NCBI GenBank assembly: GCA_037129475.1
Contig: JBAXUY010000005.1
Location: forward strand, 1 to 59,008
DNA length: 59,008 nt
Direction: 5' to 3'
Source of the DNA: Planctomycetia bacterium
Lineage (GTDB): Bacteria; Planctomycetota; Planctomycetia; Pirellulales; UBA1268
Shown piece after piece: positions 9,304-26,982 of this stretch. A model generated the notes under the pieces. That model was not told where the DNA came from, did no database searches, and saw only the letters and a list, made by a program, of their open reading frames with translations. A program made the position numbers and the translations under genes. Position 1 is the stretch's first letter. The number at the start of each line of letters is the position of its first letter.

Positions 9304-9377
<74 letters not shown>

Positions 9378-9387
9378 AAAAACCGAA

Positions 9388-9461
9388 TGCGCGCGCCAAG
9401 ATTCGAACTTGGGACCTCTACCTTATCAGGGTAGCGCTCTAACCAACTGAGCTACGCGCGC
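9388..9461 (-). tRNA. tRNA-Ile (anticodon GAT)
   Basis: The reverse complement is GCGCGCGTAGCTCAGTTGGTTAGAGCGCTACCCTGATAAGGTAGAGGTCCCAAGTTCGAATCTTGGCGCGCGCA. The anticodon loop is CTGATAA and the arms are canonical. Confidence 0.95.
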
Positions 9462-9647: not shown

Positions 9648-11567
9648 ATGGCCACGACGGTCTCCCGATTCACCATGCGGCGCCTTGCCGGCGCGTTCGC
9701 TCTCCAGGTCGCCCTCGTGGCGACGACTGGCGCGGCCCAGCCGACGGTCGAATATGCCCTCGGTCTCTCCCCGTTCCAGAAGAATGTCGAGTACGACCGC
9801 GTGGCGGCCGACCAGGTGAAGGCCTGCACGATCAAGATGGAGAAGGAGGGCGGCCTCAACGCCTGGGTCGTGCGCGGACCCCGCGGCGAGGTTTTGCGGT
9901 CGTTCTCCGACACCAATGCCGACCGCGTCGTCGACCGCTGGAGTTATTACAAGGACGGTGCCGAGGTCTACCGCGACGTCGATTCCAACCACAACACGAA
10001 AGCCGATCAGGCGCGCTGGCTCGGTGCCGGCGGCAGCCGGTGGGGTGTCGACGAGGACGAGAACGGCTCGATCGACAGTTGGAAGGTGATCTCGGCCGAG
10101 GAGGCCACGGCGGAGATCGTCGAGGCCCTCCGCTCCCGTGAGGCGTCGGTGTTCACGCGGCTCTTGCCGACCAACGCCGACCTGCAGGCCGCCGGCTTCG
10201 AGGACCCGCTGCTGAGCGAACTCACGGCCCGGGTGACGGCCGCGGCGAAGGGGTTCGCGAAGCTCGTGGCGGCCCCGAGCAACACGCTCGGGCCCCAGGC
10301 CCGCTGGAACAACATGCTCGCACCGCAGCCGGGCACGCTGCCGGCGGGTACGGCGGGCGTGGCCAAGGACGTGACTGCGTATGACAACGTGGTCGCGCTC
10401 GTGGACGGCGGCGACGGCAAGTCGGGCGGCCCCGGACAGATCTACGTCGGGTCGCTCGTGCGCATCGGCGACGCCTGGCGGCCGGTCGACCTGCCGCAAT
10501 TGCCCGGGACGCAGGGGGAGATCGCGGATGCCACGGGGTTCTTCTCGCCGCGCGCGAGCGAGCGCGGCGGCGGGGAAACGGGCGGGCAGGATAGTGAAAA
10601 GCTCAAGCCGCTCCTGGCGAAGCTGCGCGACATCGAAACGAAGCTGTCGACGGCCGATCTCGCCACCCGGCGGCAGTTGGCGGGCGAGCAGGTGGCCCTG
10701 CTCGAGCAGGTCACGGCCGCAGCCGATGCCGCCGAAAAGCCGTTCTGGGTGAAGCAACTCGCGGAGACGGTCGCCGCCGGCGTGCAGGACGGGGCGCTGC
10801 CCGAGGGCATCAAGCGGCTCGAGCAGCTGGCGGGTGCCGTGTCGGCCGACGAATCGCTCGAAGCGTTCGTGCGGTTCCGGCTCGCTTCCGCCCGGTACGC
10901 CGCGGGGATGCAGGAGTCCGGGGCTGACGTGGCGAAGGTGCAGGCGGCGTGGCTCGACGACCTGAAGCAGTTCGTGGAGAAGCATCCACAGGCCCCTGAC
11001 GCCGCCGAGGCGATGCTGCAGATGGGCATTTCCGACGAATTCTCGGGCAACGAGAAGGAGGCGATCGAGCGGTACGCTGCGATCGTGAAGGGGTTCCCCG
11101 AATCGCCGTCGGCGCGGAAGGCCCGTGGTGCCGCACGGCGGCTCGAGAGCGTGGGCAAGCCGCTCGCGCTCTCCGGCACCGGCATCGACGGCCGGCCCAT
11201 CGCCGTCGAGTCGCTGCGCGGACGGCCCGTGCTCGTTCACTACTGGGCCACGTGGTGCGAGCCCTGCAAGGTCGACATCGCGCAGATCCGCGAACTCTAT
11301 GCGAAGTATGGCCCCAAGAAGTTCGCCGTGGTCGGCATCGCGCTCGACACCGACAAGGCGCAGCTCGCGAAGTTCCTGGCCGCCAAGCCGATCCCGTGGC
11401 CACAGTTGCACGAGGCGGGCGGCCTCGATGGACGGCTGGCCGAGGAGCTCGGGGTGCTCACGCTGCCGACCATGCTCCTCGTCGACGCCCAGGGGAACGT
11501 GGTCGATCGCAACCTCGTGATCACCGACCTGGAAAAGAAGCTCGACTCGCTTCTCGGCGCAAACTGA
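9648..11567 (+). CDS. Secreted TlpA/ResA-like thiol-disulfide oxidoreductase with a long N-terminal and TPR-like region
   Basis: The C-terminus reads LRGRPVLVHYWATWCEPCKVDIAQIRELYAKYGPKKFAVVGIALD, a redoxin fold with a CxxC. The start is at MATTVSRF, preceded by AGGAAGGA. Confidence 0.8.
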   Translation: MATTVSRFTMRRLAGAFALQVALVATTGAAQPTVEYALGLSPFQKNVEYDRVAADQVKACTIKMEKEGGLNAWVVRGPRGEVLRSFSDTNADRVVDRWSYYKDGAEVYRDVDSNHNTKADQARWLGAGGSRWGVDEDENGSIDSWKVISAEEATAEIVEALRSREASVFTRLLPTNADLQAAGFEDPLLSELTARVTAAAKGFAKLVAAPSNTLGPQARWNNMLAPQPGTLPAGTAGVAKDVTAYDNVVALVDGGDGKSGGPGQIYVGSLVRIGDAWRPVDLPQLPGTQGEIADATGFFSPRASERGGGETGGQDSEKLKPLLAKLRDIETKLSTADLATRRQLAGEQVALLEQVTAAADAAEKPFWVKQLAETVAAGVQDGALPEGIKRLEQLAGAVSADESLEAFVRFRLASARYAAGMQESGADVAKVQAAWLDDLKQFVEKHPQAPDAAEAMLQMGISDEFSGNEKEAIERYAAIVKGFPESPSARKARGAARRLESVGKPLALSGTGIDGRPIAVESLRGRPVLVHYWATWCEPCKVDIAQIRELYAKYGPKKFAVVGIALDTDKAQLAKFLAAKPIPWPQLHEAGGLDGRLAEELGVLTLPTMLLVDAQGNVVDRNLVITDLEKKLDSLLGAN

Positions 11568-17740: not shown

Positions 17741-17814
17741 GGGCGGCTAGCTCAGTTGGTTAGAGCGCTACGTTCACACCGTAGAGGTCACAGGTTCGAA
17801 TCCTGTGCCGCCCA
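17741..17814 (+). tRNA. tRNA-Val (anticodon CAC)
   Basis: GGGCGGCTAGCTCAGTTGGTTAGAGCGCTACGTTCACACCGTAGAGGTCACAGGTTCGAATCCTGTGCCGCCCA has a 7-bp acceptor stem, anticodon loop TTCACAC and the T-loop GGTTCGAATCC. Confidence 0.95.
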
Positions 17815-17901
17815 CTGGATGGTTGAGTGCTGAAAAGACGAATCAAAGCTACCTGCCCGCGGTGGGCAGTGCCTTCGGGATGCGGCTGAAAGCGCGGCAT
17901 T
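17778..17901 (+). repeat. Left copy of the ~124-nt imperfect direct repeat (tRNA-Val 3' half plus downstream element)
   Basis: It aligns with 25435-25558. The first 38 nt have 3 mismatches, followed by a 35-nt unrelated spacer of identical length, then about 52 nt at roughly 80% identity. Confidence 0.7.
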
Positions 17902-18180
17902 TCTAGCTTTCCCACTTTCGGGGTCAACGCGGCGCCCGGGGGCAGGTCAAAACTGACCGCCTCGCTGATCGTCGAGGGCCGTCTCCCGTGGGCCGCGGGG
18001 GCGCCGCGGTGTGAGATTGCCGCGAGGCTCGGCATCAGCATCGACACGCTTCGAGCCTGCGAGGCTGACCAACTGGTGGGCATGCCCCAGCGAATGCGCA
18101 GGATGAACTCGGGGCGACGGGGCGAGGTGCCCGACGAGGACGAGATCCGCCTTCGGTGCGCGATGCTGCGGCGGTCCTGA
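17890..18180 (+). pseudogene. Possible decayed HTH-protein gene next to the tRNA
   Basis: This open frame has no ATG near its 5' end and contains RCEIAARLGISIDTLRACE (HTH-like). It ends ...DEDEIRLRCAMLRRS-TGA. The same frame continues as PAERFIPLWKDGERLGHMAESAAF to 18255, so the TGA may be a mutated TGG. Confidence 0.2.
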
Positions 18181-18388
18181 CCTGCCGAGCGATTCATTCC
18201 GCTCTGGAAAGACGGCGAGCGGCTGGGACACATGGCCGAAAGCGCGGCGTTCTGAGGCGGCAGTGAGCCGCTATTTGCCGCTGCAACGGCCGCCATGCCC
18301 CAAGGTTGTCCCTGTCGTCTGGACAGTGGAAGGACTGCTCTCTGCAATAGAGGGGTATGCTCCCCAAACAACAGGTGAGAACCAGCGC

Positions 18389-19753
18389 ATGAGTGAGGGT
18401 AAGTCGAAGACGGGACTGCTGAATTGGCTCGGTAAGGCCGTCAGCGGAGTGCTTGATCCCGACAGGGAGGCTCGGCTCCAGGAGTATGTTGCCAAAGTTG
18501 ATGCCGAGATCAGTCGGCTTCGCCACGACTTTGACTTCTCGAAGACCGTTGCTCGTCTCGATATGGCTCCAAGCGACGAGCCGCTTGTTGCGGAGCGTCT
18601 GTACCGACAGTTTCTAGAACGAGCGTGGAAAGATCAGCAGATCACAGCCCGCGAGATCGAGTTGCTCGCGTGGGTCGCCGGTGCCCTGGAGTTGGAAGAC
18701 GGTGTTGTAGCGCGGCTCAACTATGAGTTCGCAGCAGCCAGGTTCCGTAGGGCGTTCGCTCAGGCGATGTCCGACGGCCGCGTGGACGAAGCAGAGGCGG
18801 CGCGGCTCCAGGCGATAGCGAGCGGCTGTGGCCAGACTGTCGGCGGCCTTGTTTCGCACTTCTTCAAGGCCGACGGTGAGCCGCTGCTTCGGAGCATATT
18901 CAGCGGCCTCGCCATGGATGGGCAAATCGACAAGGCCGAGTGGCAATCGTTCCAAGAGACTGTGGAAAGGCTGGGCGTGCCGCGCGAGTTGGTGCTGCAG
19001 GCCATTCAAACCCCAGCGCATCAACTGGTTGAACATGCGCTGGCTGATGCACGTGTCGACGGGGAAATCTCTGAGAACGAGGAGCGGGGTATCGAGTGGC
19101 TTCTTCGAAACGTCGTAGGCGACACGCCATTCGCGGCCTACGTTCGGAAGGAGATCGCCGAGGCAAAGGAAATGCAGGCCCTTCAAAAAGGCGTTCTGCA
19201 GAGTGTTGCTGCCCCACCAGGCACGGCTCTACGTGCAGGTGAGATCGTGCACTGGTTTGGGCCAGCCAAGTACGTGCGCAAACGTGAACTCGCGAGCGGC
19301 ATCAAGTTCGACGAAGTGGATGGGGAACTGGTCATCACGGACACGAGGACGATCCTCAACGCCCAGGAGAAGTCCCTCGAACTGAACCACCGAAAAGTTT
19401 TAGCGCACGTGCCGTTTGGTGATGGAATCGAGATTCGATGCGGCGGCAAGGGGAGCGGTCACTACATTTTTGCTCGCGATGGCGAACGTGCAGTCCCCAT
19501 ATGGCAGGTTGCGATTAGTCGTGCGAATCAAACGATCGTCGCATCCGATGATAAAGCAGCGCGGCGGCGAATTTCCCGCGAAGTGAGACAGCGCGTGTGG
19601 CAGCGGTATGGGGGGCGGTGCGCGGAGTGTCAGGCGGACACGTACCTCGAGTTCGACCATATAGTGCCGGTCGCCAAGGGTGGCAGTAATTCCGACACGA
19701 ACGTGCAACTACTTTGCCGGAAGTGCAACCTCGCCAAGAGCGACAACATCTGA
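18389..19753 (+). CDS. TerB-like repeat / PH-like / HNH endonuclease protein
   Basis: There are four helical repeats with the TerB-type signature (DQQITAREIELLAWVAGALEL; DGRVDEAEAARLQAIASGCG; DGQIDKAEWQSFQETVERLGV; DGEISENEERGIEWLLRNV). A bacterial-PH-like beta segment follows (GEIVHWFGPAKYVRKRE...DGELVITDTRTIL...IEIRCGG). The C-terminus is an HNH domain (CAECQADTYLEFDHIVPVAKGGSNSDTNVQLLCRKCNLAKS). The start ATG 18389 is preceded by AGGTGA; the ORF-track start at 18263 is a GTG. Confidence 0.8.
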   Translation: MSEGKSKTGLLNWLGKAVSGVLDPDREARLQEYVAKVDAEISRLRHDFDFSKTVARLDMAPSDEPLVAERLYRQFLERAWKDQQITAREIELLAWVAGALELEDGVVARLNYEFAAARFRRAFAQAMSDGRVDEAEAARLQAIASGCGQTVGGLVSHFFKADGEPLLRSIFSGLAMDGQIDKAEWQSFQETVERLGVPRELVLQAIQTPAHQLVEHALADARVDGEISENEERGIEWLLRNVVGDTPFAAYVRKEIAEAKEMQALQKGVLQSVAAPPGTALRAGEIVHWFGPAKYVRKRELASGIKFDEVDGELVITDTRTILNAQEKSLELNHRKVLAHVPFGDGIEIRCGGKGSGHYIFARDGERAVPIWQVAISRANQTIVASDDKAARRRISREVRQRVWQRYGGRCAECQADTYLEFDHIVPVAKGGSNSDTNVQLLCRKCNLAKSDNI

Positions 19754-22700
19754 TGAAGGTTGGCATGCGTTTCGAACAGATCGAATTCATCATCCGCCGT
19801 GACGCCGATGGGACGAGTTTCGGACGCGATTTCGAGTGGCTGTGTAAGTGGTACCTGGAGAACGCTCCGCTGTACCGCGGCAAGTTCCGGAAGGTCTGGC
19901 GATGGGACGAGTGGCCGGATCGCTGGGGCCGTGACTGCGGTATCGACCTCATTGCGGAGACAATTGACGGCGAACTGTGGGCCGTTCAGTGCAAGGCGGT
20001 GTCGCCAGAGCACGCCGTCACGAAGGCTGAAATCGACTCGTTCCTCTCTGAATCCAATCGAAAGCAGATCGCTTACCGGCTGCTGATCGCGACAACCGAC
20101 AACATCGGGACGAACGCCCTGCGAACCATCGAGAACCAGGCGAGGCACGCATCTGTCGTGCTGCGGGGTGACCTGGTTACGGCGGAGGTCGATTGGCCCA
20201 GCAAAATCGGCGGCACTGCTCTGAAGCCGCCACGCTGGAAGCCTCTCCCCCATCAGCGGGCAGCGATCAGCGACGTCCTGGCGGGCTTCAAAAAACACGA
20301 GCGCGGCCGCCTCATCATGGCCTGCGGCACCGGCAAGACGCTGACGGGCCTCTTGATCAGCGAAGCCGTCGGTAGCCAGCGCACGTTGTTGCTGGTTCCG
20401 TCGATCAGTCTGGCCCAGCAGAACCTGAAAGAATGGGGCCGCCACGCGAAGGAGGATTTCGATTGCCTGGTCGTGTGCTCCGACGAGACGGTGGCAAGCG
20501 ACCGCGACGATCCCGCGTTGCGATACGTCGCCGACCTGGGGATCAGGCCGACGACCAACCCGAAAGAGATAGCCGCATTCTTATCGAAGCGGCGAAGCCG
20601 ACCCGCCCTGGTGATCTCGACCTACCAATCCTGTGAGCGCGTCTCACGGGGGCAGTCGATGGCGAAGAAGTGGTTTGATCTCGCGCTCTGCGACGAGGCT
20701 CACCGGCTTGTCGGCCATTCGGACAGCCAGTTCGCCACGGTGCTGCACGACAAAAAGATCCGCGCCCGTCGCCGGTTGTTCATGACGGCCACACCCCGCT
20801 ACTTCACGCAGCGGGCAAAGGAGCGCGGCGCGGAGCAGGACATCGAATTGGTATCGATGGATGACGAGACGAAGTTCGGCCCCGAGTTCCACGTGCTCAC
20901 CTTCCACGAGGGGATCACGGCCAAGCCGGAGCCGTTGCTGACCGATTACCAGGTAGTCGTGATCGGCGTAACCAACGCAGAAGCGAAGGCGTGGGCCGCA
21001 GACGCGAAACTCATTCGCACGAAGGATGGCCTCGAAACCGATGCCAGGACGCTCGCCTCGCAGATCGGGCTCGCGAAGGCGATGAAGCAATATGATCTCA
21101 CGCGGATGATCACGTTCCATCGGTCGATCCGCAGGGCGTCGCGGTTCGTCGATGGCGAGCGTCGTGATTCACTGCCCGCCGTGATCGCGAAGATGCGGCC
21201 CGAAAACCAGCCCGCAGGCCGACTATGGGCGACACACGTTTCCGGCGAAACAGCGGCCAGCAAACGGGCCTCACTCCTGAAGGAACTTGGAGACTTGCCA
21301 AAAGGCACGTGCGGGCTGATTTCGAATTGCGCGTGCCTGGGGGAAGGCGTTGATGTTCCTGCCCTCGACGGCGTGGCCTTCATCGACCCGAAGGGTTCGA
21401 TGGTGGACATCATTCAGGCCGTCGGCCGCGTGATCCGCAAATCGCCCGACAAAAAGATCGGCACCATCGTCATCCCCGTATTCGTAGACGAGTCGGAGGA
21501 CGCCGATCACGCACTTAAAAACTCCGCTTTCGATCCCGTGTGGCAGGTGCTCAAGGCACTACGTGCCCACGACCGGCGGCTCGCCGACGAACTGGACGGA
21601 TTGCGGACTTCGCTGGGGAAGCAGGCCGGTGGCGGGAGGCGAATCAAACTTCCCTCGAATGTCGTGCTTGATGTGCCACGGCTGTTGCTCCAGGACTTCG
21701 AGCAGGCGTTCTACGTCCGGGCTGTGAAGGCAGCCACAGAGAAGCCCGCGTTAACCGTTGAACAGATTCTGCAATGGGCCGACGAATGGAAACTAAGGAC
21801 AGGAGACTGGCCGAATGCCAAGTCTGGGGCCATACCTGACACGCAAGAGACGTGGGCAGGCATAGCCCACGCGCTGAATCGTGGGCACCGTGGACTAAAC
21901 GCGAGTCGCTGTTCCCTGCCGCAGTTCCTGCACGACTTCCGAGGTGTTCGCAACAGAGCGGGCCTGGGGATGCTTGCCGAAGAGCAGATCCTCGAATGGG
22001 CAGATCGCTACTTTGAGCATCACAGTTCGTGGCCCACCCACTCGTCTGGGGATATACCCGAAACATATGACACATGGGCCGGTGTTAGTGTCGCCCTCCG
22101 AAACGGCGCTCGCGGGCTACCTCGGCAAATAACGCTGGCAAACCTTCTCTGGGAGAAGCGGGGAGTTCCTAACAGGGCAAACCGTCCGCGGTTGTCTATC
22201 GAACAGATTTTGAGGTGGAGCGACGATCACAAACGGCGGACGGGAGATTGGCCCGATCAAACCTCCGGGCAGGTTTATGGCACAACCGAGACCTGGGGAG
22301 GCATTCAAGTCGCGCTCAACGGTGGAAAACGTGGGCTCCGCGGCAAATCGTCAATTCGGCTCCTACTGCATGAGCACCGCGGAGTCCCTCACTTAAGGCG
22401 CCAGCCGCGACTGTCTGTGCCTCTGATTCTGAGGTGGGCTGATGACTACCATCGCATGACTGGGCGGTGGCCGAAGAACAAAAAAACTTCTGACAAAATC
22501 TCAGGAACAGATGACAGTTGGGCCAGCATCGACGCTGCTCTCCGCGCAGGAAGACGCGGCCTGCGCAAGTCGTCGCTCGCGGACTTGCTCGAGAAGCGTC
22601 GTGGCGTCAGAAACCATCTAAAGGCTCGGCCACTTACGTTAAAACAGATTCTGAGATGGGCAGATCGGCATAGAAGAAAGACCGGTGAATGGCCCATCGC

Positions 22701-23496
22701 GGAATCCGGCCAGATCATAGGGGCCAGAGGCGAGAAATGGTCGAGCGTGCAGGCGGCTCTTTCGCAGGGCACGCGCGACCTTCCCGGAGGTGACTCGCTG
22801 TCTCGCTTACTCGCGCGTGAACGTGGCGTCCGCAACCGACTCGACACCCCGAAACTAACGGTTCGCAGGATTCTCGCGTGGGCTGATGCGCACCACCAGA
22901 ATCATGGCGACTGGCCAACTGTCGGTGATCGCCGTGATCCTGCTGCAGGAGAGAATTGGAACGCCATTAATGCGGCTCTTGAGCGCGGATCCCGCGGTCT
23001 ACCGGGGGGCAGTTCCTTGGCGACTTTGCTGGCTGAAAAGCGAGGGGTGCGTCGCGGCCGTCATGCCCAGAGGCTCACGGTAAACATGATCGCCAAATGG
23101 GCGAAAGCGCATCACAGGCGCACGGGCAAATGGCCGACGTTGAGTTCCGGTTTAGTCCACGGCACAAACGAGCGATGGAATAATTTGGATCAGTTGTTGG
23201 CCAAGGGGCTCCGCGGTTTACCTGGCGGTCAAAGACTGGCCAACGTTCTTGCGGATCACTGCGGAGTTCGCAACCACCTGAACATTTCCGACCTGTCGGT
23301 GAAGCAATTATTGGTGTGGGCCGATGAGCACCATGCCCGGAATGGAACCTTTCCGACCAAGGACTCGGGCCCCGTTTTCGGAACCGAGGAGAACTGGTCG
23401 AAAATTGATACCTCGTTAAGGGCTGGGAATCGCGGACTTCCCGGCGGCTCATCGCTCGCCAAGTTGCTGGATCGGCATCGACGAGGCAGGGATTAA
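19753..23496 (+). CDS. Mrr-type PD-(D/E)xK nuclease + SF2 DEAH helicase + 8x ~73-aa C-terminal repeat protein (1247 aa)
   Basis: The N-terminus has GRDCGIDLIAETIDGELWAVQCKA (Mrr_cat-like D...QxK). Helicase motifs are I MACGTGKTLTG, II LCDEAHRL, III FMTATPR, V/VI GEGVDVPALDGVAFIDP...QAVGRVIRK. Eight tandem repeats follow. The start ATG 19753 overlaps the upstream stop (TGATG). Confidence 0.85.
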   Translation: MKVGMRFEQIEFIIRRDADGTSFGRDFEWLCKWYLENAPLYRGKFRKVWRWDEWPDRWGRDCGIDLIAETIDGELWAVQCKAVSPEHAVTKAEIDSFLSESNRKQIAYRLLIATTDNIGTNALRTIENQARHASVVLRGDLVTAEVDWPSKIGGTALKPPRWKPLPHQRAAISDVLAGFKKHERGRLIMACGTGKTLTGLLISEAVGSQRTLLLVPSISLAQQNLKEWGRHAKEDFDCLVVCSDETVASDRDDPALRYVADLGIRPTTNPKEIAAFLSKRRSRPALVISTYQSCERVSRGQSMAKKWFDLALCDEAHRLVGHSDSQFATVLHDKKIRARRRLFMTATPRYFTQRAKERGAEQDIELVSMDDETKFGPEFHVLTFHEGITAKPEPLLTDYQVVVIGVTNAEAKAWAADAKLIRTKDGLETDARTLASQIGLAKAMKQYDLTRMITFHRSIRRASRFVDGERRDSLPAVIAKMRPENQPAGRLWATHVSGETAASKRASLLKELGDLPKGTCGLISNCACLGEGVDVPALDGVAFIDPKGSMVDIIQAVGRVIRKSPDKKIGTIVIPVFVDESEDADHALKNSAFDPVWQVLKALRAHDRRLADELDGLRTSLGKQAGGGRRIKLPSNVVLDVPRLLLQDFEQAFYVRAVKAATEKPALTVEQILQWADEWKLRTGDWPNAKSGAIPDTQETWAGIAHALNRGHRGLNASRCSLPQFLHDFRGVRNRAGLGMLAEEQILEWADRYFEHHSSWPTHSSGDIPETYDTWAGVSVALRNGARGLPRQITLANLLWEKRGVPNRANRPRLSIEQILRWSDDHKRRTGDWPDQTSGQVYGTTETWGGIQVALNGGKRGLRGKSSIRLLLHEHRGVPHLRRQPRLSVPLILRWADDYHRMTGRWPKNKKTSDKISGTDDSWASIDAALRAGRRGLRKSSLADLLEKRRGVRNHLKARPLTLKQILRWADRHRRKTGEWPIAESGQIIGARGEKWSSVQAALSQGTRDLPGGDSLSRLLARERGVRNRLDTPKLTVRRILAWADAHHQNHGDWPTVGDRRDPAAGENWNAINAALERGSRGLPGGSSLATLLAEKRGVRRGRHAQRLTVNMIAKWAKAHHRRTGKWPTLSSGLVHGTNERWNNLDQLLAKGLRGLPGGQRLANVLADHCGVRNHLNISDLSVKQLLVWADEHHARNGTFPTKDSGPVFGTEENWSKIDTSLRAGNRGLPGGSSLAKLLDRHRRGRD
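21751..23493 (+). repeat. Eight in-frame tandem coding repeats (period 219-222 nt, ~73 aa)
   Basis: Repeat starts are at 21751, 21973, 22192, 22411, 22633, 22855, 23074 and 23293. The approximate consensus is L[ST]VxQIL.WAD.H..RTG.WP...SG.I.G..E.W..I..AL..G.RGLPGGSSLA.LL...RGVRN. The copies are divergent at the DNA level. Confidence 0.85.
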
Positions 23497-23502
23497 CTGG
23501 TC

Positions 23503-24189
23503 ATGCGACTGGTCGGCTGGAATGCCAACTACAACAACCATCCGCGCACCTTCGAAGAAAACGTCGCCCTCCTGGAGCCGTTCAAGGCCGACGTGCTGGT
23601 GATCTGTGAGACCGCGCCGCCGCAGCCTGGTGGTCGGGCGTTCTTCGTGGGCGGTTCGCCTGGGCTGGCCGTTGTGGCCCCTGATGGCATCGAGATCCAG
23701 CCGCACCCGATGAACGACGGTGCGCCGCCGCTGTTTGCCGGATTTCGTGTTGCTGGGCCTCTGGCGTTCGATCTGCTGGCGACCTGGCCCGTCAGCCGAA
23801 AGGGTATGCCCTCCTACCACGAGGTGCTGATGGCGTCCCTGGGGCGATACGCCGACTTCTGGGCGGCTGGTCGCGCGGTGATGCTGGGTGACTTCAATTC
23901 GAGCACCCGGGTCGGCAGCCAGAAGCGGTCACATCCGGTGTTCGTCCAGGCCGCTCTGGATCGCGGGCTCGTGAGCGCGTACCACGAGCAGACAGGCGAG
24001 AGCCACGGCGAGGAAACCGTGTCGACGTACCTCCACGGCAATGGTGCGGAGTTTCACGTGGACTACGGCTTCGTGTCGCAGCCGCTCGTCGAGTCAGTCC
24101 GCTGCCGGATTCCCGACGAGCCGCGATGGTTCGAGATCGGCGATCACCGGCCGATCGTCTTGGATATCGACGAGGCCGTGGGAGAGTGA
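23503..24189 (+). CDS. Endonuclease/exonuclease/phosphatase (EEP) family protein
   Basis: MRLVGWNANY..., ...ADVLVICET..., ...VMLGDFNSS..., ...EIGDHRPIVLDI follow the EEP (ExoIII/DNase I-like) motif order. It starts 6 nt after the helicase stop. Confidence 0.7.
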   Translation: MRLVGWNANYNNHPRTFEENVALLEPFKADVLVICETAPPQPGGRAFFVGGSPGLAVVAPDGIEIQPHPMNDGAPPLFAGFRVAGPLAFDLLATWPVSRKGMPSYHEVLMASLGRYADFWAAGRAVMLGDFNSSTRVGSQKRSHPVFVQAALDRGLVSAYHEQTGESHGEETVSTYLHGNGAEFHVDYGFVSQPLVESVRCRIPDEPRWFEIGDHRPIVLDIDEAVGE

Positions 24190-24203
24190 CTTCTCTCGCC
24201 GCG

Positions 24204-24286
24204 GATTCGTCCCTCGATTTGCCCGATTCGTCCCGCGCGTTTCGAGTGCGCGCCCGATTCGTCCCTAGCCGTGCCGGATTCGTCAC
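24204..24286 (+). promoter_or_regulatory. Four phased direct repeats of GATTCGTC(C/A)C
   Basis: Copies lie at 24204-24213, 24225-24234, 24256-24265 and 24277-24286, with start-to-start spacing of 21, 31 and 21 nt. They sit between the EEP stop and the island PEP-CTERM gene, and a GC palindrome (cgcgcg...gcgcgc) lies between copies 2 and 3. Confidence 0.5.
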
Positions 24287-24416: not shown

Positions 24417-25073
24417 ATGAAAGAGACAGCAATGCGAAGTAGACGTTTGCCGGAAATGTTATCCGCCGTGCGATGCATCGTCGTCATGGCGATCGTGGTC
24501 GCTTCCGTCCTAAGCGCCTGCGCGGCAATCGCCGCATCGACGACAAACTTTTTACTCGAGGCAGCCGACGGCGGCGCCAAGTCGCGACTGTCATGGACAT
24601 TCGGAGATGGCTGGCTTTCGCCCTCGGGCGTCGAGACAAAAACCATGACCTACCTTGGCACATTTGGCGCGGGGGCGATCGATCCCACCTTCGTCTCGGG
24701 GACGTTCGCCGTCAGCGGTGCCGGTTCGTACAACAACATCACCACGGGATCCTCCTTTCAGATAACTAACCTCGGGTTCACGCAGATGAACACGTCTGAT
24801 CTGTTCATCAGCTTGATGCAGACACAAAGCGTTCTTGTCTCCGGCTCAGGCCAGTTCGTCTCATACACGCCAGGGACTGATTCGTTTGTGGTCGACATCC
24901 CGTTTTCGAAGTTCGTTCCGGGTATCTATGCGATCAACAACGGGGTGTCGACACCGCCGACCCCGCAGACGTTGACGATCACCGCCGTGCCCGAGCCATG
25001 GACGTGGGTGATGGCTACGGGCGGGTTCGCCTATGCAGCATTTGAAATGTTCCGGCGCCGCAGGCGGGCCTGA
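24417..25073 (+). CDS. Secreted PEP-CTERM-anchored protein (island cargo)
   Basis: It has a signal/TM region (VRCIVVMAIVVASVLSACAAIAAS), and its C-terminus is AVPEPWTWVMATGGFAYAAFEMFRRRRRA. An alternative start is MRSRRL at 24432. Confidence 0.75.
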   Translation: MKETAMRSRRLPEMLSAVRCIVVMAIVVASVLSACAAIAASTTNFLLEAADGGAKSRLSWTFGDGWLSPSGVETKTMTYLGTFGAGAIDPTFVSGTFAVSGAGSYNNITTGSSFQITNLGFTQMNTSDLFISLMQTQSVLVSGSGQFVSYTPGTDSFVVDIPFSKFVPGIYAINNGVSTPPTPQTLTITAVPEPWTWVMATGGFAYAAFEMFRRRRRA

Positions 25074-25102
25074 CGCCGAGTGCCTGATGTGATTCACACG
25101 AT

Positions 25103-25134
25103 GAGGGGAGCGGGCCACGCGGTTCGCTCCCCTC
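25103..25134 (+). terminator. Hairpin after the island PEP-CTERM gene
   Basis: gaggggagcg-ggccacgcggtt-cgctcccctc is a perfect 10-bp stem, followed by gctcgtttgt (weak T-tract), 30 nt after the stop. Confidence 0.4.
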
Positions 25135-25434
25135 GCTCGTTTGTGGGCTGACCGCGAGCCGGTGCCGCCGTGGGAATGGTGGGCGGGCGGGGCGCCAGCC
25201 GGCGGGTAGGCGAATCCTGTCTACATCACTCGACCCCCGCCCTGCCCCGCAGTCGCAGCGGCTCACGCTGGGCCAGAACATCCCCGCTTCCCCGCTTCTG
25301 AATGGTGGAGTGTGTTTTTTCAGTGGAAAGCGGGGAAAGTGTTGCTTCTGTTGTCGGCCTTCGAAAGGGCTGATATTCTCGTTGCAAACCGTCATTTCGA
25401 CGGCACGGAAGTGCGTGTCTGAAGGTTGGTTCCC

Positions 25435-25558
25435 ACCGTAGAGGCCGCAGGTTCGAATCCTGTGCTGCCCACTCGGTCGAAAGACCTTGTTTTGCAGGAG
25501 AGACGCGACCTGCCCTCGCTGGGCGGCGCCCTCGGGATGCGACTGAACGCGGGGCATT
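25435..25558 (+). repeat. Right copy of the direct repeat (decayed tRNA-Val 3' fragment plus downstream element)
   Basis: accgtagaggccgcaggttcgaatcctgtgctgcccac is followed by a 35-nt spacer and a homologous 52 nt. The upstream ..gaaggttggtt|ccc| looks like a D-arm remnant joined directly to the variable/T-arm region, i.e. the anticodon arm is missing. Confidence 0.7.
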
Positions 25559-26982
25559 CGCGACTCACGCGAGCACAGGCCATCGCCGCCGAGGATCTGC
25601 ATGAGGCGCAGACCGGGATCGGGCGCTTGTTTTCCCGCGGCATGCGGCCGGTGATCCGCTGGATCAAGGGGGATGGGCTCGACGATGCGGTGACGCGGTC
25701 GGCGATCGGGCAGGCAACGCGGCTCTTTGGCGGCCGCGTCGACTATTGCCTCTGTACGCAGGGCATCGATGGGGCCCGAGTGCGCTCCATTCTCCAATGG
25801 GCTGCCCAGCCGGTGGAATGGTGGCCGGTATCGGCAAACGACAACCAACACCTCGCCGCCTTTCTCCAGCGGGCCGGCTGTCCGCCCGAGAAATTTGGCT
25901 ACTGGTGGAAATGGTTTCCGGAGCGGGTGCGGCCGGACGGCCCGGAGTGGATTCTCGACGGCGATATGGTGGTTACGGCTGCTCCGCCCTGGTTCGCTGC
26001 CTGGGCCACTGGCCGCGATGGCGTGCGGGTCGCCCAAGACGACAAGGAAGGTCCGCACATCTACGGCGCCTACGCACGCCTCGTCGATCCATCGCTGAAA
26101 CTCTATTCGGGCCTCGTGTCGCTGCCGCCGCGGTGTCGTTACATGCCGCAGATGTCGCAGGTGCTGAAGCGGTGGCCGCTTGCGTTTGGCCACGACGGCC
26201 GGCGCGACATGTGCGAGCAGGGCGTGGTGGCGGCGACGTTTCAGGCGTTGTGGGCAACGCCGATTCCGCTGCACCAGTTTCCGTTCGGCCGGGCGTTCCA
26301 GCCGCATTTGGATTTCGGTCTCGCCGGTGATCAGGGGCATGTGTGGGGATATCACTTCGGCAACGCCTTCCGTCGTGCCAATCCCCACTATGAACGGCTC
26401 ACGGCCGAGGGCGTGGTGTTTTCCAAGGGGTGGGGCGACGTGATCGAGCGGCATCGCTGGCTGGGCGGCACGGGCGCGTGGGGCGTTCCGGGCTGGACGA
26501 TGCCCGATGGCATGGCCCGCACCATCCTCTCGCGAGCGATGGCGTTCACTGGCCGAGCCGTGCTGGAACTGGGCACCTCGCGGGGCCGCCTGACTGCGAT
26601 GCTGGCCGAGCAAGGCTGCCGGGTGACGACGGTCGATCATGTCGATCGTGGCGCCGCAACGAACGTGTCCGGCTTGCCGGTGGAGGTCGTCGTCGCAGAC
26701 GTGGTCGAGTATTTGCAGCGCACGCCGCGATCGTTCGATCTGATCATCTGCGACGTGCACGGCAATTCGCCGGCGGAATGGGCCCGCTTCGCGGAGCCGC
26801 TGACGATGCGGCTCGCTCCCGGCGGTATGCTTCTGGCCAGCAATGCGACGCTGCACGAGGTTCCGGGATGGCACGAGGAGACGGGCGTGCAGGCATTCGC
26901 CGCTCAACTGCCTCCCGACTGGGCGGTCGAGCTGGATCGTTCCGAGGTGCCGGGGCTGGCGATCGTAAGAAAGCCGCTGTGA
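25537..26982 (+). CDS. Fusion protein: N-terminal GT-A-like domain (DxD) + C-terminal class-I SAM-dependent methyltransferase
   Basis: WILDGDMVV is a DxD-type motif in a domain of about 300 aa that I cannot otherwise place. The C-terminal AVLELGTSRGRLTAMLAEQGCRVTTVDHVD...FDLIICDVHG is a Rossmann SAM-methyltransferase motif I plus post-I. The start is uncertain: 25537 (MRLNAGH, conserved in the repeat) or 25642 (MRPVIRW). Confidence 0.6.
   Translation: MRLNAGHSRLTRAQAIAAEDLHEAQTGIGRLFSRGMRPVIRWIKGDGLDDAVTRSAIGQATRLFGGRVDYCLCTQGIDGARVRSILQWAAQPVEWWPVSANDNQHLAAFLQRAGCPPEKFGYWWKWFPERVRPDGPEWILDGDMVVTAAPPWFAAWATGRDGVRVAQDDKEGPHIYGAYARLVDPSLKLYSGLVSLPPRCRYMPQMSQVLKRWPLAFGHDGRRDMCEQGVVAATFQALWATPIPLHQFPFGRAFQPHLDFGLAGDQGHVWGYHFGNAFRRANPHYERLTAEGVVFSKGWGDVIERHRWLGGTGAWGVPGWTMPDGMARTILSRAMAFTGRAVLELGTSRGRLTAMLAEQGCRVTTVDHVDRGAATNVSGLPVEVVVADVVEYLQRTPRSFDLIICDVHGNSPAEWARFAEPLTMRLAPGGMLLASNATLHEVPGWHEETGVQAFAAQLPPDWAVELDRSEVPGLAIVRKPL

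What the first reader, a model, noticed from the sequence alone, without database searches (positions are those of the whole stretch)
18389..24189. Island-borne three-gene nuclease/helicase/nuclease operon: candidate undescribed defence or DNA-surveillance system
Three co-directional genes are packed with coupling signals: a TGATG stop/start overlap at 19751-19755 and a 6-nt gap at 23497-23502.
- Gene 1 is a TerB-like x4 / PH-like / HNH nuclease.
- Gene 2 is a 1247-aa protein. It joins an Mrr-type PD-(D/E)xK nuclease (GIDLIAE...WAVQCK) to a complete SF2 DEAH helicase (MACGTGKT, DEAH, TAT, QAVGRVIRK). An array of eight ~73-aa repeats follows.
- Gene 3 is an EEP (ExoIII/DNase I-fold) enzyme.

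Three different nuclease folds and a translocase sit in one operon inside an AT-richer, tRNA-flanked island. That is the typical signature of anti-phage or anti-plasmid systems. TerB domains have been linked by comparative genomics to membrane-associated DNA-processing and stress complexes. I do not recognise this exact gene combination as any named system (it is not an RM, BREX, DISARM, Hachiman, Gabija, Zorya or Druantia layout). No methyltransferase is present, so it would not discriminate self from non-self by modification.
Basis: partly seen in the sequence, partly recalled or inferred. Interest (0 to 1): 0.85.

Follow-up and report, generated by a model that had tools for sequence, protein, structure and literature searches.

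The report
Mosaic nuclease cargo of decayed island
Three intact nuclease genes sit at the end of a broken-down mobile island in a planctomycete; they are separable modules in a defence hotspot rather than one fixed three-gene system, and the central one is a methylase-less relative of Type ISP restriction enzymes that carries an undescribed array of small three-helix repeats.

Summary
The gene coordinates, tight spacing, domains, eight ~73-aa repeats, lower-GC tRNA-Val island and absence of a methyltransferase are all confirmed.

The "three-gene system" reading is only partly supported.
- Gene 2 is the constant element. Residues 24-624 are homologous to the Mrr nuclease and SF2 motor of the Type ISP enzymes LlaBIII and LlaGI. 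The methylase and target-recognition domain are replaced by 4-14 copies of a basic three-helix repeat. This repeat has no Pfam family and no significant structural match.
- The EEP gene follows gene 2 in five independent contexts, usually with the same 6-nt gap. It is absent from most relatives.
- The TerB-HNH gene precedes gene 2 in only two other element types. Elsewhere it stands alone, twice beside CRISPR-Cas loci.
- The full trio was found only in this window.
- In a syntenic sister island, the slot held here by the TerB-HNH gene holds PD-Lambda-1, a named defence gene in PADLOC.
- Intact sister islands carry an integrase, an excisionase-like gene, a primase and a small terminase. The window's copy has lost these.

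Best reading: this is a defence hotspot of a decayed satellite-like island. Its core is a new variant of ATP-dependent restriction enzyme. All functions are inferred.

The parts
17741..17815 (+). tRNA-Val(CAC); integration site and left end of the island
   Evidence: ARAGORN. Its 3' half is repeated at 25429-25471. Sister islands begin with the same tRNA followed by an integrase gene (L020).
17805..17943 (+). Remnant of the first ~50 codons of the island integrase
   Evidence: tblastn with the L020 integrase matches only its residues 1-51. The rest of the mobility module is deleted.
17953..18255 (+). Pseudogene of the 105/106-aa island gene that precedes the cargo region in sister islands
   Evidence: 61-65% identity to the L020 and L026 proteins over 100 residues. 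It has an in-frame stop and no start. DNA identity is 75%.
18389..19753 (+). Gene 1: 454-aa TerB-like / HNH nuclease, a separable module
   Evidence: HNH in Pfam. Its family has 261 proteins of ~450 aa with TerB, DUF533 and HNH recorded. It lies upstream of gene 2 only in L025 and L118-120, and alone elsewhere. dN/dS is 0.08 against L118.
19753..23496 (+). Gene 2: 1247-aa Mrr nuclease + SF2 translocase + eight-repeat array (alternative start at 19765)
   Evidence: dN/dS is 0.09-0.20 in both halves.
19861..20199 (+). Gene 2 Mrr-type nuclease domain (residues 37-149) with the D-x13-QxK motif
   Evidence: Mrr_cat_2 at 4.5e-34. GIDLIAE...WAVQCK aligns with GVDLVAE...VAIQAK of LlaBIII. D65 is invariant, and Q79 and K81 are nearly invariant, in 58 homologues.
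20230..21624 (+). Gene 2 SF2 helicase-like motor (residues ~160-624)
   Evidence: ResIII, DEAD and Helicase_C. Motifs I, II, III and VI are conserved with LlaBIII and LlaGI. The match ends at residue 624.
21745..23493 (+). Gene 2 C-terminal array: eight 69-74-aa three-helix repeats, pI 11.1
   Evidence: Repeat alignment. AlphaFold pLDDT is 83 for the array and 90 for a single repeat. No Pfam family matches and there is no significant Foldseek match. The repeat occurs in 3262 protein clusters. There is no tandem repeat at the DNA level.
23503..24189 (+). Gene 3: 228-aa EEP (exonuclease III-fold) enzyme, a facultative partner of gene 2
   Evidence: Family profile against PDB exonuclease III gives 1.4e-5 over the full length. 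PF03372 is recorded in homologues. N7, E36, D130, N132, D187, D214 and H215 are invariant. It follows gene 2 in L023, L018-21, L026-29/L051 and L121.
25429..25471 (+). Copy of the 3' end of tRNA-Val; right end of the island
   Evidence: Read from the sequence and aligned with the tRNA. It is followed by a second integrase-5' remnant at 25462-25563. Beyond it the sequence is 87% identical to the chromosomal flank of L026.

Best explanation
The region 17.8-25.5 kb is the remnant of a mobile island integrated at tRNA-Val. The island is of the satellite or small-prophage type. It has lost its integrase-to-terminase module but kept its cargo intact. The cargo is a defence-type hotspot made of separable nuclease modules, not an obligate three-gene machine.

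**Gene 2, the core.** It is a single-polypeptide, ATP-driven translocating endonuclease descended from the nuclease-motor half of Type ISP restriction-modification enzymes. The methyltransferase and target-recognition domain are replaced by an array of basic three-helix repeats.

Inferred mechanism:
1. The array binds DNA, or a feature of foreign DNA such as a base modification, and so takes over target recognition.
2. The SF2 motor then translocates along the DNA.
3. The Mrr (D-QxK) nuclease nicks or cuts, as in Type ISP enzymes.
4. With no methylase, self-discrimination must be of the Type IV kind (modification-dependent) or otherwise independent of modification.

**Gene 3.** The exonuclease III-like enzyme is a facultative helper in one subclade. 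A possible role, which is inference only, is to enlarge nicks into gaps or to process ends.

**Gene 1.** The TerB-HNH protein is an autonomous single-gene module that happens to occupy the variable slot upstream of gene 2.

**Shown:** homology, architecture, intact motifs, purifying selection, mobile-element context and variable partnerships.
**Inferred:** DNA binding by the array, defence activity and any cooperation between the genes.
For: **Gene 2 homology and architecture**
- Type ISP homology of residues 24-624: PDB 4xqk 3e-82 and 5ffj 3e-61. The PADLOC REase_MTase_IIG model hits at 3e-147 but covers only positions 23-644 of 1646.
- Nuclease and helicase motifs are intact.
- Repeat copy number is 4-14 in 119 homologues. 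A two-repeat in-register difference separates the window from L118.
- The array has pI 11.1, a conserved W/P/G/R/L scaffold and variable hairpin and helix-2 positions.
- The same repeat is fused directly to an Mrr nuclease with no motor in P0283, P0333, P0353 and P0379.
- 41 of 41 more distant relatives carry arrays of the HA domain in the same place. That domain is reported to bind DNA (Mills 2013, as cited in PMC12191111).

**Island**
- The att repeat, integrase stub and pseudogene are present.
- Sister islands carry an integrase, an excisionase-like gene, PrimPol or DUF3987, and a small terminase.
- L026 is syntenic, with flanks 87% identical. It carries PD-Lambda-1 (3.9e-154) where the window has gene 1.

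**Partnerships**

**Selection**
- dN/dS is 0.08-0.26 for all three genes.

**Precedent**
- Satellites and prophages carry hotspots of anti-phage systems (PMC9122126).
Against: - There is no experimental evidence for defence by any of the three genes.
- The repeat has no significant structural or profile match. DNA binding rests on charge, position in the protein and analogy only.
- Gaps of -1/+11 nt and 6 nt, with no terminator between the genes, fit co-transcription. Some cooperation therefore cannot be excluded.
- The gene 2+EEP pair recurs with a fixed 6-nt gap in four of its five contexts. This argues the pair is more than chance adjacency in that subclade.
- The census rests on metagenome contigs. 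Many are short, so absences are partly uncertain.
Confidence: 0.6

Rival explanations
1. One reading: the three genes form one obligate defence system in which the TerB-HNH protein, the nuclease-helicase and the EEP enzyme act together.
For: - The genes are co-directional and tightly spaced, with no terminator-like site between them.
- All three are intact and under purifying selection.
- TerB proteins partner with helicases in Shango (10.1101/2025.09.30.679545).
Against: - The trio was seen only in the window.
- Gene 2 occurs without either partner in most loci.
- Gene 1 occurs alone.
- The slot upstream of gene 2 holds unrelated genes in sister islands: PD-Lambda-1, a GIY-YIG protein, or nothing.
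- No Shango model hit appears in the PADLOC results.
Confidence: 0.1
2. Gene 2 and the EEP gene form a real two-gene system in this subclade, with the EEP enzyme needed for the lethal step. The TerB-HNH gene is independent.
For: - The pair is found in five contexts with different repeat numbers (8, 8, 6, 5, 8). The 6-nt gap is the same in four of them.
- Type ISP nucleases first nick one strand and need two colliding enzymes for a break (abstract of PMC3553963). An exonuclease III-like partner could make single nicks lethal. This last point is inference.
Against: - Gene 2 relatives at 71-84% identity lack the EEP gene (L025, L022, L118, L024).
- EEP homologues at 54-57% identity sit in other contexts without gene 2.
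Confidence: 0.3
3. The genes serve the mobile element itself, or DNA repair, rather than host defence. Examples are interference with a helper phage, processing of DNA for packaging or replication, or addiction.
For: - The location is next to packaging and replication genes of a satellite-like element.
- Exonuclease III relatives are classically repair enzymes.
Against: - The cargo survives intact here although the mobility, replication and packaging genes are gone.
- The N-terminal module is that of a restriction enzyme.
- Neighbours in sister loci are defence-type genes: PD-Lambda-1, TIR and HNH.
- Distribution is patchy and linked to mobile elements, including 748 plasmids for the N-terminal module.
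Confidence: 0.12

Closest known systems
[quoted passage not shown]
   Same: - A single polypeptide with an N-terminal Mrr-like D-QxK nuclease followed by an SF2 helicase-like translocase.
- Clear sequence homology over residues 24-624, with all motor motifs conserved.
- Type ISP is defined in PMC3874165.
   Different: - No gamma-methyltransferase and no target-recognition domain.
- The match stops at residue 624, before the coupler.
- The C-terminal half is an array of eight small repeats.
- No host-protecting methylation is therefore possible.
Mrr-SF2 helicase proteins with C-terminal HA (PF03457) repeats, annotated 'DEAD/DEAH box helicase', common on actinobacterial plasmids
   Same: - The same N-terminal nuclease-motor module (46-52% identity).
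- The same plan: a variable-length C-terminal array of ~70-aa predicted three-helix repeats.
   Different: - The planctomycete repeat is not recognised by the Pfam HA model.
- Profile-profile comparison gives no signal (probability 0.2%).
- In a rough tree of the N-terminal module the two array types are interleaved.
- No function for the HA-type proteins turned up in two literature searches. These were limited and would not necessarily find one.
ATP-dependent Type IV restriction enzymes such as SauUSI (nuclease + helicase + C-terminal recognition domain)
   Same: A nuclease-motor-recognition domain order in one chain, without a methylase. SauUSI is described in PMC12191111 as a PLD nuclease fused to helicase domains that targets 5-methylcytosine DNA.
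   Different: - A different nuclease fold (Mrr rather than PLD) and a different recognition module.
- Only weak PADLOC mREase_IV hits, over the helicase C-terminal region (4e-4).
- Dependence on modification is untested.
TerB-containing defence systems (Shango SngA, Bunzi BnzA, Dionysus DinB)
   Same: Gene 1 belongs to a family with TerB and DUF533 signatures. TerB proteins recur in defence systems (10.1101/2025.09.30.679545).
   Different: - Gene 1 fuses the TerB-like region to an HNH nuclease in one protein.
- No PADLOC hit to the Shango, Bunzi or other TerB systems. There is only a partial hit to candidate PDC-S48 (1e-11, residues 55-146).
Exonuclease III / EEP superfamily
   Same: Gene 3 matches over its full length at the profile level, and the catalytic residues are invariant.
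   Different: It belongs to a small divergent family of 34 proteins found. It falls below the Pfam threshold itself (0.13) and is shorter than exonuclease III (228 against ~256 aa).
Defence hotspots of phage satellites and prophages (P4-like, PICI-like)
   Same: Sister islands have an integrase, an excisionase-like gene, a primase and a small terminase, followed by a variable cargo slot. That slot holds PD-Lambda-1 in one of them. The concept comes from PMC9122126.
   Different: - The host is a planctomycete.
- No helper phage is known.
- One relative also encodes a head protease/major head gene (L121), so the element class is not settled.
- The window's copy is a non-mobile remnant.

Membership tests
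Type ISP restriction-modification enzyme | N-terminal Mrr-like (PD-QxK) endonuclease domain | tested here: met
   Mrr_cat_2 at 4.5e-34. The D65...Q79-x-K81 motif aligns with LlaBIII.
Type ISP restriction-modification enzyme | SF2 helicase-like translocase homologous to LlaGI/LlaBIII | tested here: met
   PDB 4xqk at 3e-82 and 5ffj at 3e-61. Motifs I, II, III and VI are conserved.
Type ISP restriction-modification enzyme | Gamma-class adenine methyltransferase domain in the same chain | tested here: not met
   No methyltransferase family appears in Pfam or NCBIfam. The PADLOC model is matched only at positions 23-644 of 1646.
Type ISP restriction-modification enzyme | C-terminal target-recognition domain of the Type I/ISP kind | tested here: not met
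   Residues 665-1247 are eight three-helix repeats. The LlaBIII match ends at residue 624.
Mrr-helicase-HA repeat proteins | Homologous Mrr + SF2 N-terminal module | tested here: met
   HMM of residues 1-660 matches 40 HA-type proteins end to end.
Mrr-helicase-HA repeat proteins | C-terminal repeats that match the Pfam HA domain (PF03457) | tested here: not met
   No HA hit even at E<=10. hhalign gives probability 0.2% and E 0.3. A structural comparison with an HA structure could not be run.
Type IV (modification-dependent) ATP-dependent restriction enzyme | Cleaves only modified DNA, with no cognate methylase | not testable with these tools
   The absence of a methylase in the island is shown. 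Substrate preference needs experiment.
Shango (TerB protein + ATPase + helicase) | Matches to the SngA, SngB and SngC models | tested here: not met
   The PADLOC scan of all three proteins lists no Sng family at E<=0.01.
EEP (exonuclease-endonuclease-phosphatase) superfamily, for gene 3 | Full-length similarity to EEP enzymes with the catalytic Asn/Glu/Asp/Asn/Asp/Asp-His set | tested here: met
   Family profile against exonuclease III structures gives 1.4e-5 over 1-225. Invariant residues are listed. PF03372 is recorded in homologues.
TerB-HNH family, for gene 1 | C-terminal HNH nuclease with CxxC...DH...N...CxxC | tested here: met
   Pfam HNH at 3e-11 and HNH_5 at 1e-9. The motif is read from the translation.
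TerB-HNH family, for gene 1 | N-terminal TerB-like domain(s) | tested here: inconclusive
   In this protein TerB scores 0.055 and DUF533 1e-4, both below cut-off. PF05099 and PF04391 are recorded for many homologues, often as faint hits. The number of units and the PH-like domain were not tested.
Phage satellite / integrative island | Integrase, replication and small-terminase genes between att repeats at a tRNA | tested here: not met
   The att repeats and tRNA are present. In the window the integrase is a ~50-codon stub and the other genes are absent. Sister islands have them. The window therefore holds a remnant.

The most novel reading that the evidence does not exclude
The ~73-aa repeat is a new modular nucleic-acid-recognition unit. 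Each copy would read a short stretch of DNA, or a modified base, through its variable hairpin and helix-2 surface. Arrays of 4-14 copies would then specify long targets for an attached nuclease. In nature the array occurs with the translocase and also without it, as Mrr-only fusions. That would make it a natural counterpart of engineered nuclease-array fusions and a possible new programmable DNA-binding scaffold.
Probability: 0.12. Interest if true: 0.85.

Novelty: new variant of a known kind. Interest (0 to 1): 0.55.

Why it matters
- The nuclease-motor half of Type ISP restriction enzymes appears to have been re-used widely without a methylase. It is found in thousands of planctomycete proteins and on hundreds of actinobacterial plasmids, with tandem arrays of small helical domains in place of the recognition module.
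- No functional study of these proteins turned up in the literature searches run here. How they tell self from foreign DNA is unknown.
- The planctomycete repeat has no family assignment and no structural relative at significance. It also occurs fused to the nuclease alone.
- If the array is the targeting device, this would be a new way of building ATP-dependent restriction. It might also be a useful DNA-binding scaffold.
- The locus is a clear example of a defence hotspot surviving after its carrier island decayed, in a phylum where mobile elements and immunity are little studied.

Tried and rejected
- **Foldseek.** The eight-repeat model and a single-repeat model were searched against PDB and BFVD. 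Nothing was significant: best E was 0.18-0.49, and the weak top hits were sigma region 3, LexA and CI helix-turn-helix domains.
- **Pfam.** A scan of the array at E<=10 found no family.
- **Profile comparison.** The planctomycete repeat was compared with HA repeats in all phases and gave no signal.
- **PDB sequence search for an HA-domain structure.** It was not found by sequence. The paper describing it is not held.
- **Positive selection at the variable repeat positions.** dN/dS is 0.12-0.35 there. This gives no evidence of diversifying selection between orthologues.
- **Tandem Repeats Finder.** There is no DNA-level array, so the repeats are old and diverged.
- **GIY-YIG protein upstream of gene 2 in L022.** Tested as a possible gene 1 variant with a swapped nuclease. 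It is unrelated and looks like a homing endonuclease.
- **Genome-collection scan with the single protein.** It returned only 17 loci, none with gene 1 or gene 3 beside gene 2.
- **Phage and plasmid reference collections.** None holds a protein that covers the array.
- **Promoter and terminator scan.** Not above chance overall, and no promoter-like site was found. The sigma-70 consensus may not apply to this phylum.

Full report
**Observation**

The window has about 68-70% G+C. This falls to 58-63% between about 17.8 and 25.5 kb. A tRNA-Val(CAC) gene lies at 17741-17815.

Three co-directional ORFs follow.
- Gene 1 runs 18389-19753.
- Gene 2 runs 19753-23496.
- Gene 3 runs 23503-24189.

One qualification applies. 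In relatives gene 2 begins at the MRFEQ methionine (window 19765), which is 13 nt after the gene 1 stop in L118. The overlap may therefore not be the real start.

**Gene 2**

Pfam finds Mrr_cat_2 (4.5e-34), ResIII, DEAD and Helicase_C. Against solved structures, residues 24-624 match the Type ISP enzymes LlaBIII (4xqk, 3e-82) and LlaGI (5ffj, 3e-61). The nuclease motif D-x13-QxK and helicase motifs I, II, III and VI are conserved.

The best PADLOC hit is a restriction-methylase model (3e-147). Only positions 23-644 of 1646 are matched. No methyltransferase or Type I-style recognition domain is present. By the published definition of Type ISP (nuclease, translocase, gamma-methylase, recognition domain; PMC3874165), gene 2 has the first two parts and lacks the last two.

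Residues 665-1247 are eight repeats of 69-74 aa that are 38-49% identical to one another. There is no repeat at the DNA level.

**The repeat**

AlphaFold models are confident for each unit: pLDDT 83 for the array and 90 for one repeat. They are not confident for the arrangement of units relative to one another (pTM 0.35). Each unit is a long helix, a small hairpin and two shorter helices.

Nothing in PDB or BFVD matches significantly. The weak top hits are DNA-binding helical domains (sigma region 3, LexA, CI) and are not evidence. No Pfam family matches even at E<=10.

A profile of the eight repeats finds 3262 clusters among 1.84 billion representative proteins, 1177 of them at E<=1e-30. Among the 119 best gene 2 homologues the copy number runs from 4 to 14, with a mode of 7. 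The window and L118 differ by exactly two repeats.

Over 711 repeats, a scaffold is nearly fixed: W11, W22, P23, W37, L44, G47, R49 and L61. The loop, hairpin and helix-2 positions 24-26, 29, 31, 34, 38, 42, 45, 46 and 48 are highly variable. The array has pI 11.1.

Between orthologues these variable positions are still under purifying selection (dN/dS 0.12-0.35). Each repeat therefore keeps its own identity. This does not look like an arms-race pattern.

The same array is fused directly to an Mrr nuclease with no motor in four clusters, and to other helicase-like or unassigned N-termini in others.

**Wider family**

All 41 more distant relatives that share the N-terminal module but lack this repeat carry arrays of the Pfam HA (helicase-associated) domain at the same place. 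A paper held in the library cites an NMR study reporting that this domain binds DNA (PMC12191111).

I could not show that the two repeats are homologous. hhalign gives probability 0.2%.

In a rough neighbour-joining tree of the N-terminal module, the planctomycete-type arrays fall in two groups among HA-type branches. This suggests array exchange, but the tree has no support values.

The N-terminal module alone is found on 748 reference plasmids, mostly from Streptomyces. It is annotated there as a DEAD/DEAH helicase or a Type ISP enzyme. No record covers the array.

**Genes 1 and 3**

*Gene 3.* It has no Pfam hit of its own. Its 34-member family includes many PF03372 proteins. The family profile matches exonuclease III structures over the full length (1.4e-5). 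The catalytic residues are invariant. The EEP call is correct.

*Gene 1.* It has a clear HNH domain. It belongs to a 261-member family of ~450-aa proteins for which TerB and DUF533 are recorded. In this protein those hits are below threshold. The "x4" count and the PH-like domain were not tested. PADLOC gives only a partial hit to candidate PDC-S48.

**Are the three genes a unit?**

No.

*The EEP gene.* It follows gene 2 in the window and in four other contexts:
- L023 (92% identical gene 2);
- L018-21;
- L026-29/L051 (six repeats);
- the IMG/VR contig L121 (five repeats).

The 6-nt gap is present in four of these five contexts. The EEP gene is absent after gene 2 in L025, L022, L024 and L118. 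It is present in only 3 of 31 deduplicated repeat-type loci with downstream sequence. EEP homologues at 54-57% identity sit elsewhere without gene 2.

*The TerB-HNH gene.* It precedes gene 2 only in L025 and L118-120. Homologues at 56-62% identity stand alone. Two lie beside CRISPR-Cas genes and one lies among housekeeping genes.

*Other neighbours.* Neighbours of gene 2 homologues are heterogeneous. They include SNase, GIY-YIG, HNH, HIRAN, kinases, a transposase and a TIR protein 13 nt downstream. The full trio was seen only here.

**The island**

A 43-nt copy of the tRNA 3' end at about 25429-25471 marks the right end. Beyond it the sequence is 87% identical to the flank of L026/L027.

Those loci and L018-24 show the intact island: integrase, an excisionase-like DUF1580 protein, PrimPol or DUF3987, a small terminase, three small genes, then the cargo. 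L121 also has a head protease/major head gene, an integrase, a DnaB-like helicase and a small terminase.

In the window the integrase is a ~50-codon stub, and the 105-aa gene before the cargo has an in-frame stop. All three cargo genes nevertheless show dN/dS of 0.08-0.26.

In the syntenic L026 island, the slot held here by gene 1 holds a full-length PD-Lambda-1 (3.9e-154). PD-Lambda-1 is a named single-gene defence system in PADLOC. This is the behaviour of a cargo hotspot of the kind described for satellites and prophages (PMC9122126).

**Mechanism**

Shown: gene 2 has an intact Type ISP-type nuclease and motor. It also has a basic, modular, conserved C-terminal array where relatives have a recognition module.

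Inferred:
- The array binds DNA and substitutes for the methylase-recognition half.
- The motor translocates and the Mrr domain nicks or cuts.
- Discrimination cannot rest on self-methylation by this protein, so a Type IV-like or other modification-independent logic is likely.
- The EEP enzyme may enlarge nicks. Type ISP enzymes nick one strand first and need two colliding molecules for a break (PMC3553963, PMC3553950).

None of these steps has been tested.

**Verdict**

The three-gene-system reading is partly supported.

The noteworthy item is gene 2. It is a new variant of an ATP-dependent restriction enzyme with an undescribed repeat array. It is widespread in Planctomycetota and was not found characterised in the literature searches run here.

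Noticed in passing
window 24417-25073 (+): An ORF inside the island has a signal-peptide-like N-terminus. Its C-terminus reads VPEP, then a hydrophobic stretch, then RRRRR. This looks like a PEP-CTERM sorting signal. A strong hairpin follows at 25102-25135.
   Followed up: no
window 24197-24284: Four copies of GATTCGTC(C) in direct orientation lie just downstream of the EEP gene. They could be a protein-binding site, or chance.
   Followed up: partly
window 25462-25563: A second remnant of the integrase 5' end follows the tRNA-end copy. This suggests a scar of tandem island insertions. L026 also shows two att-like copies, at 10155-10433 and 11758 onward.
   Followed up: partly
proteins P0283, P0333, P0353, P0379: These are complete-looking proteins in which the Mrr nuclease, with an intact D...QxK motif, is joined directly to 6-10 copies of the repeat. 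They have no helicase.
   Followed up: partly
L113 5504-9796 and 9917-14446; L082 139-4017 and 4447-7848; P0033/P0034 on one 34.8-kb contig: Two paralogous Mrr-helicase-repeat genes lie in tandem or on one contig. This is of interest because Type ISP cleavage needs two converging enzymes.
   Followed up: no
L047 3931-4923: A TIR-domain gene starts 13 nt after a six-repeat gene 2 homologue (Pfam TIR_2 at 3.5e-13).
   Followed up: no
L117 671-1363: A 231-aa HNH protein related to the C-terminal part of gene 1 abuts the start of an HA-type Mrr-helicase gene.
   Followed up: no
L026 3066-4610 and L020 13523-14287: Sister islands carry PD-Lambda-1 (3.9e-154). They also carry a DUF5131 protein that matches PADLOC candidates PDC-M41B and PDC-M30B (9e-62).
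   Followed up: partly
proteins P0319, P0352, P0408: Repeat arrays are preceded by a different, internally duplicated tryptophan-rich N-terminal domain with no Pfam match.
   Followed up: no
window 9304-9461 (-): A tRNA-Ala(TGC) and tRNA-Ile(GAT) pair of the kind usually found in rRNA spacers is here flanked by long protein-coding ORFs.
   Followed up: no
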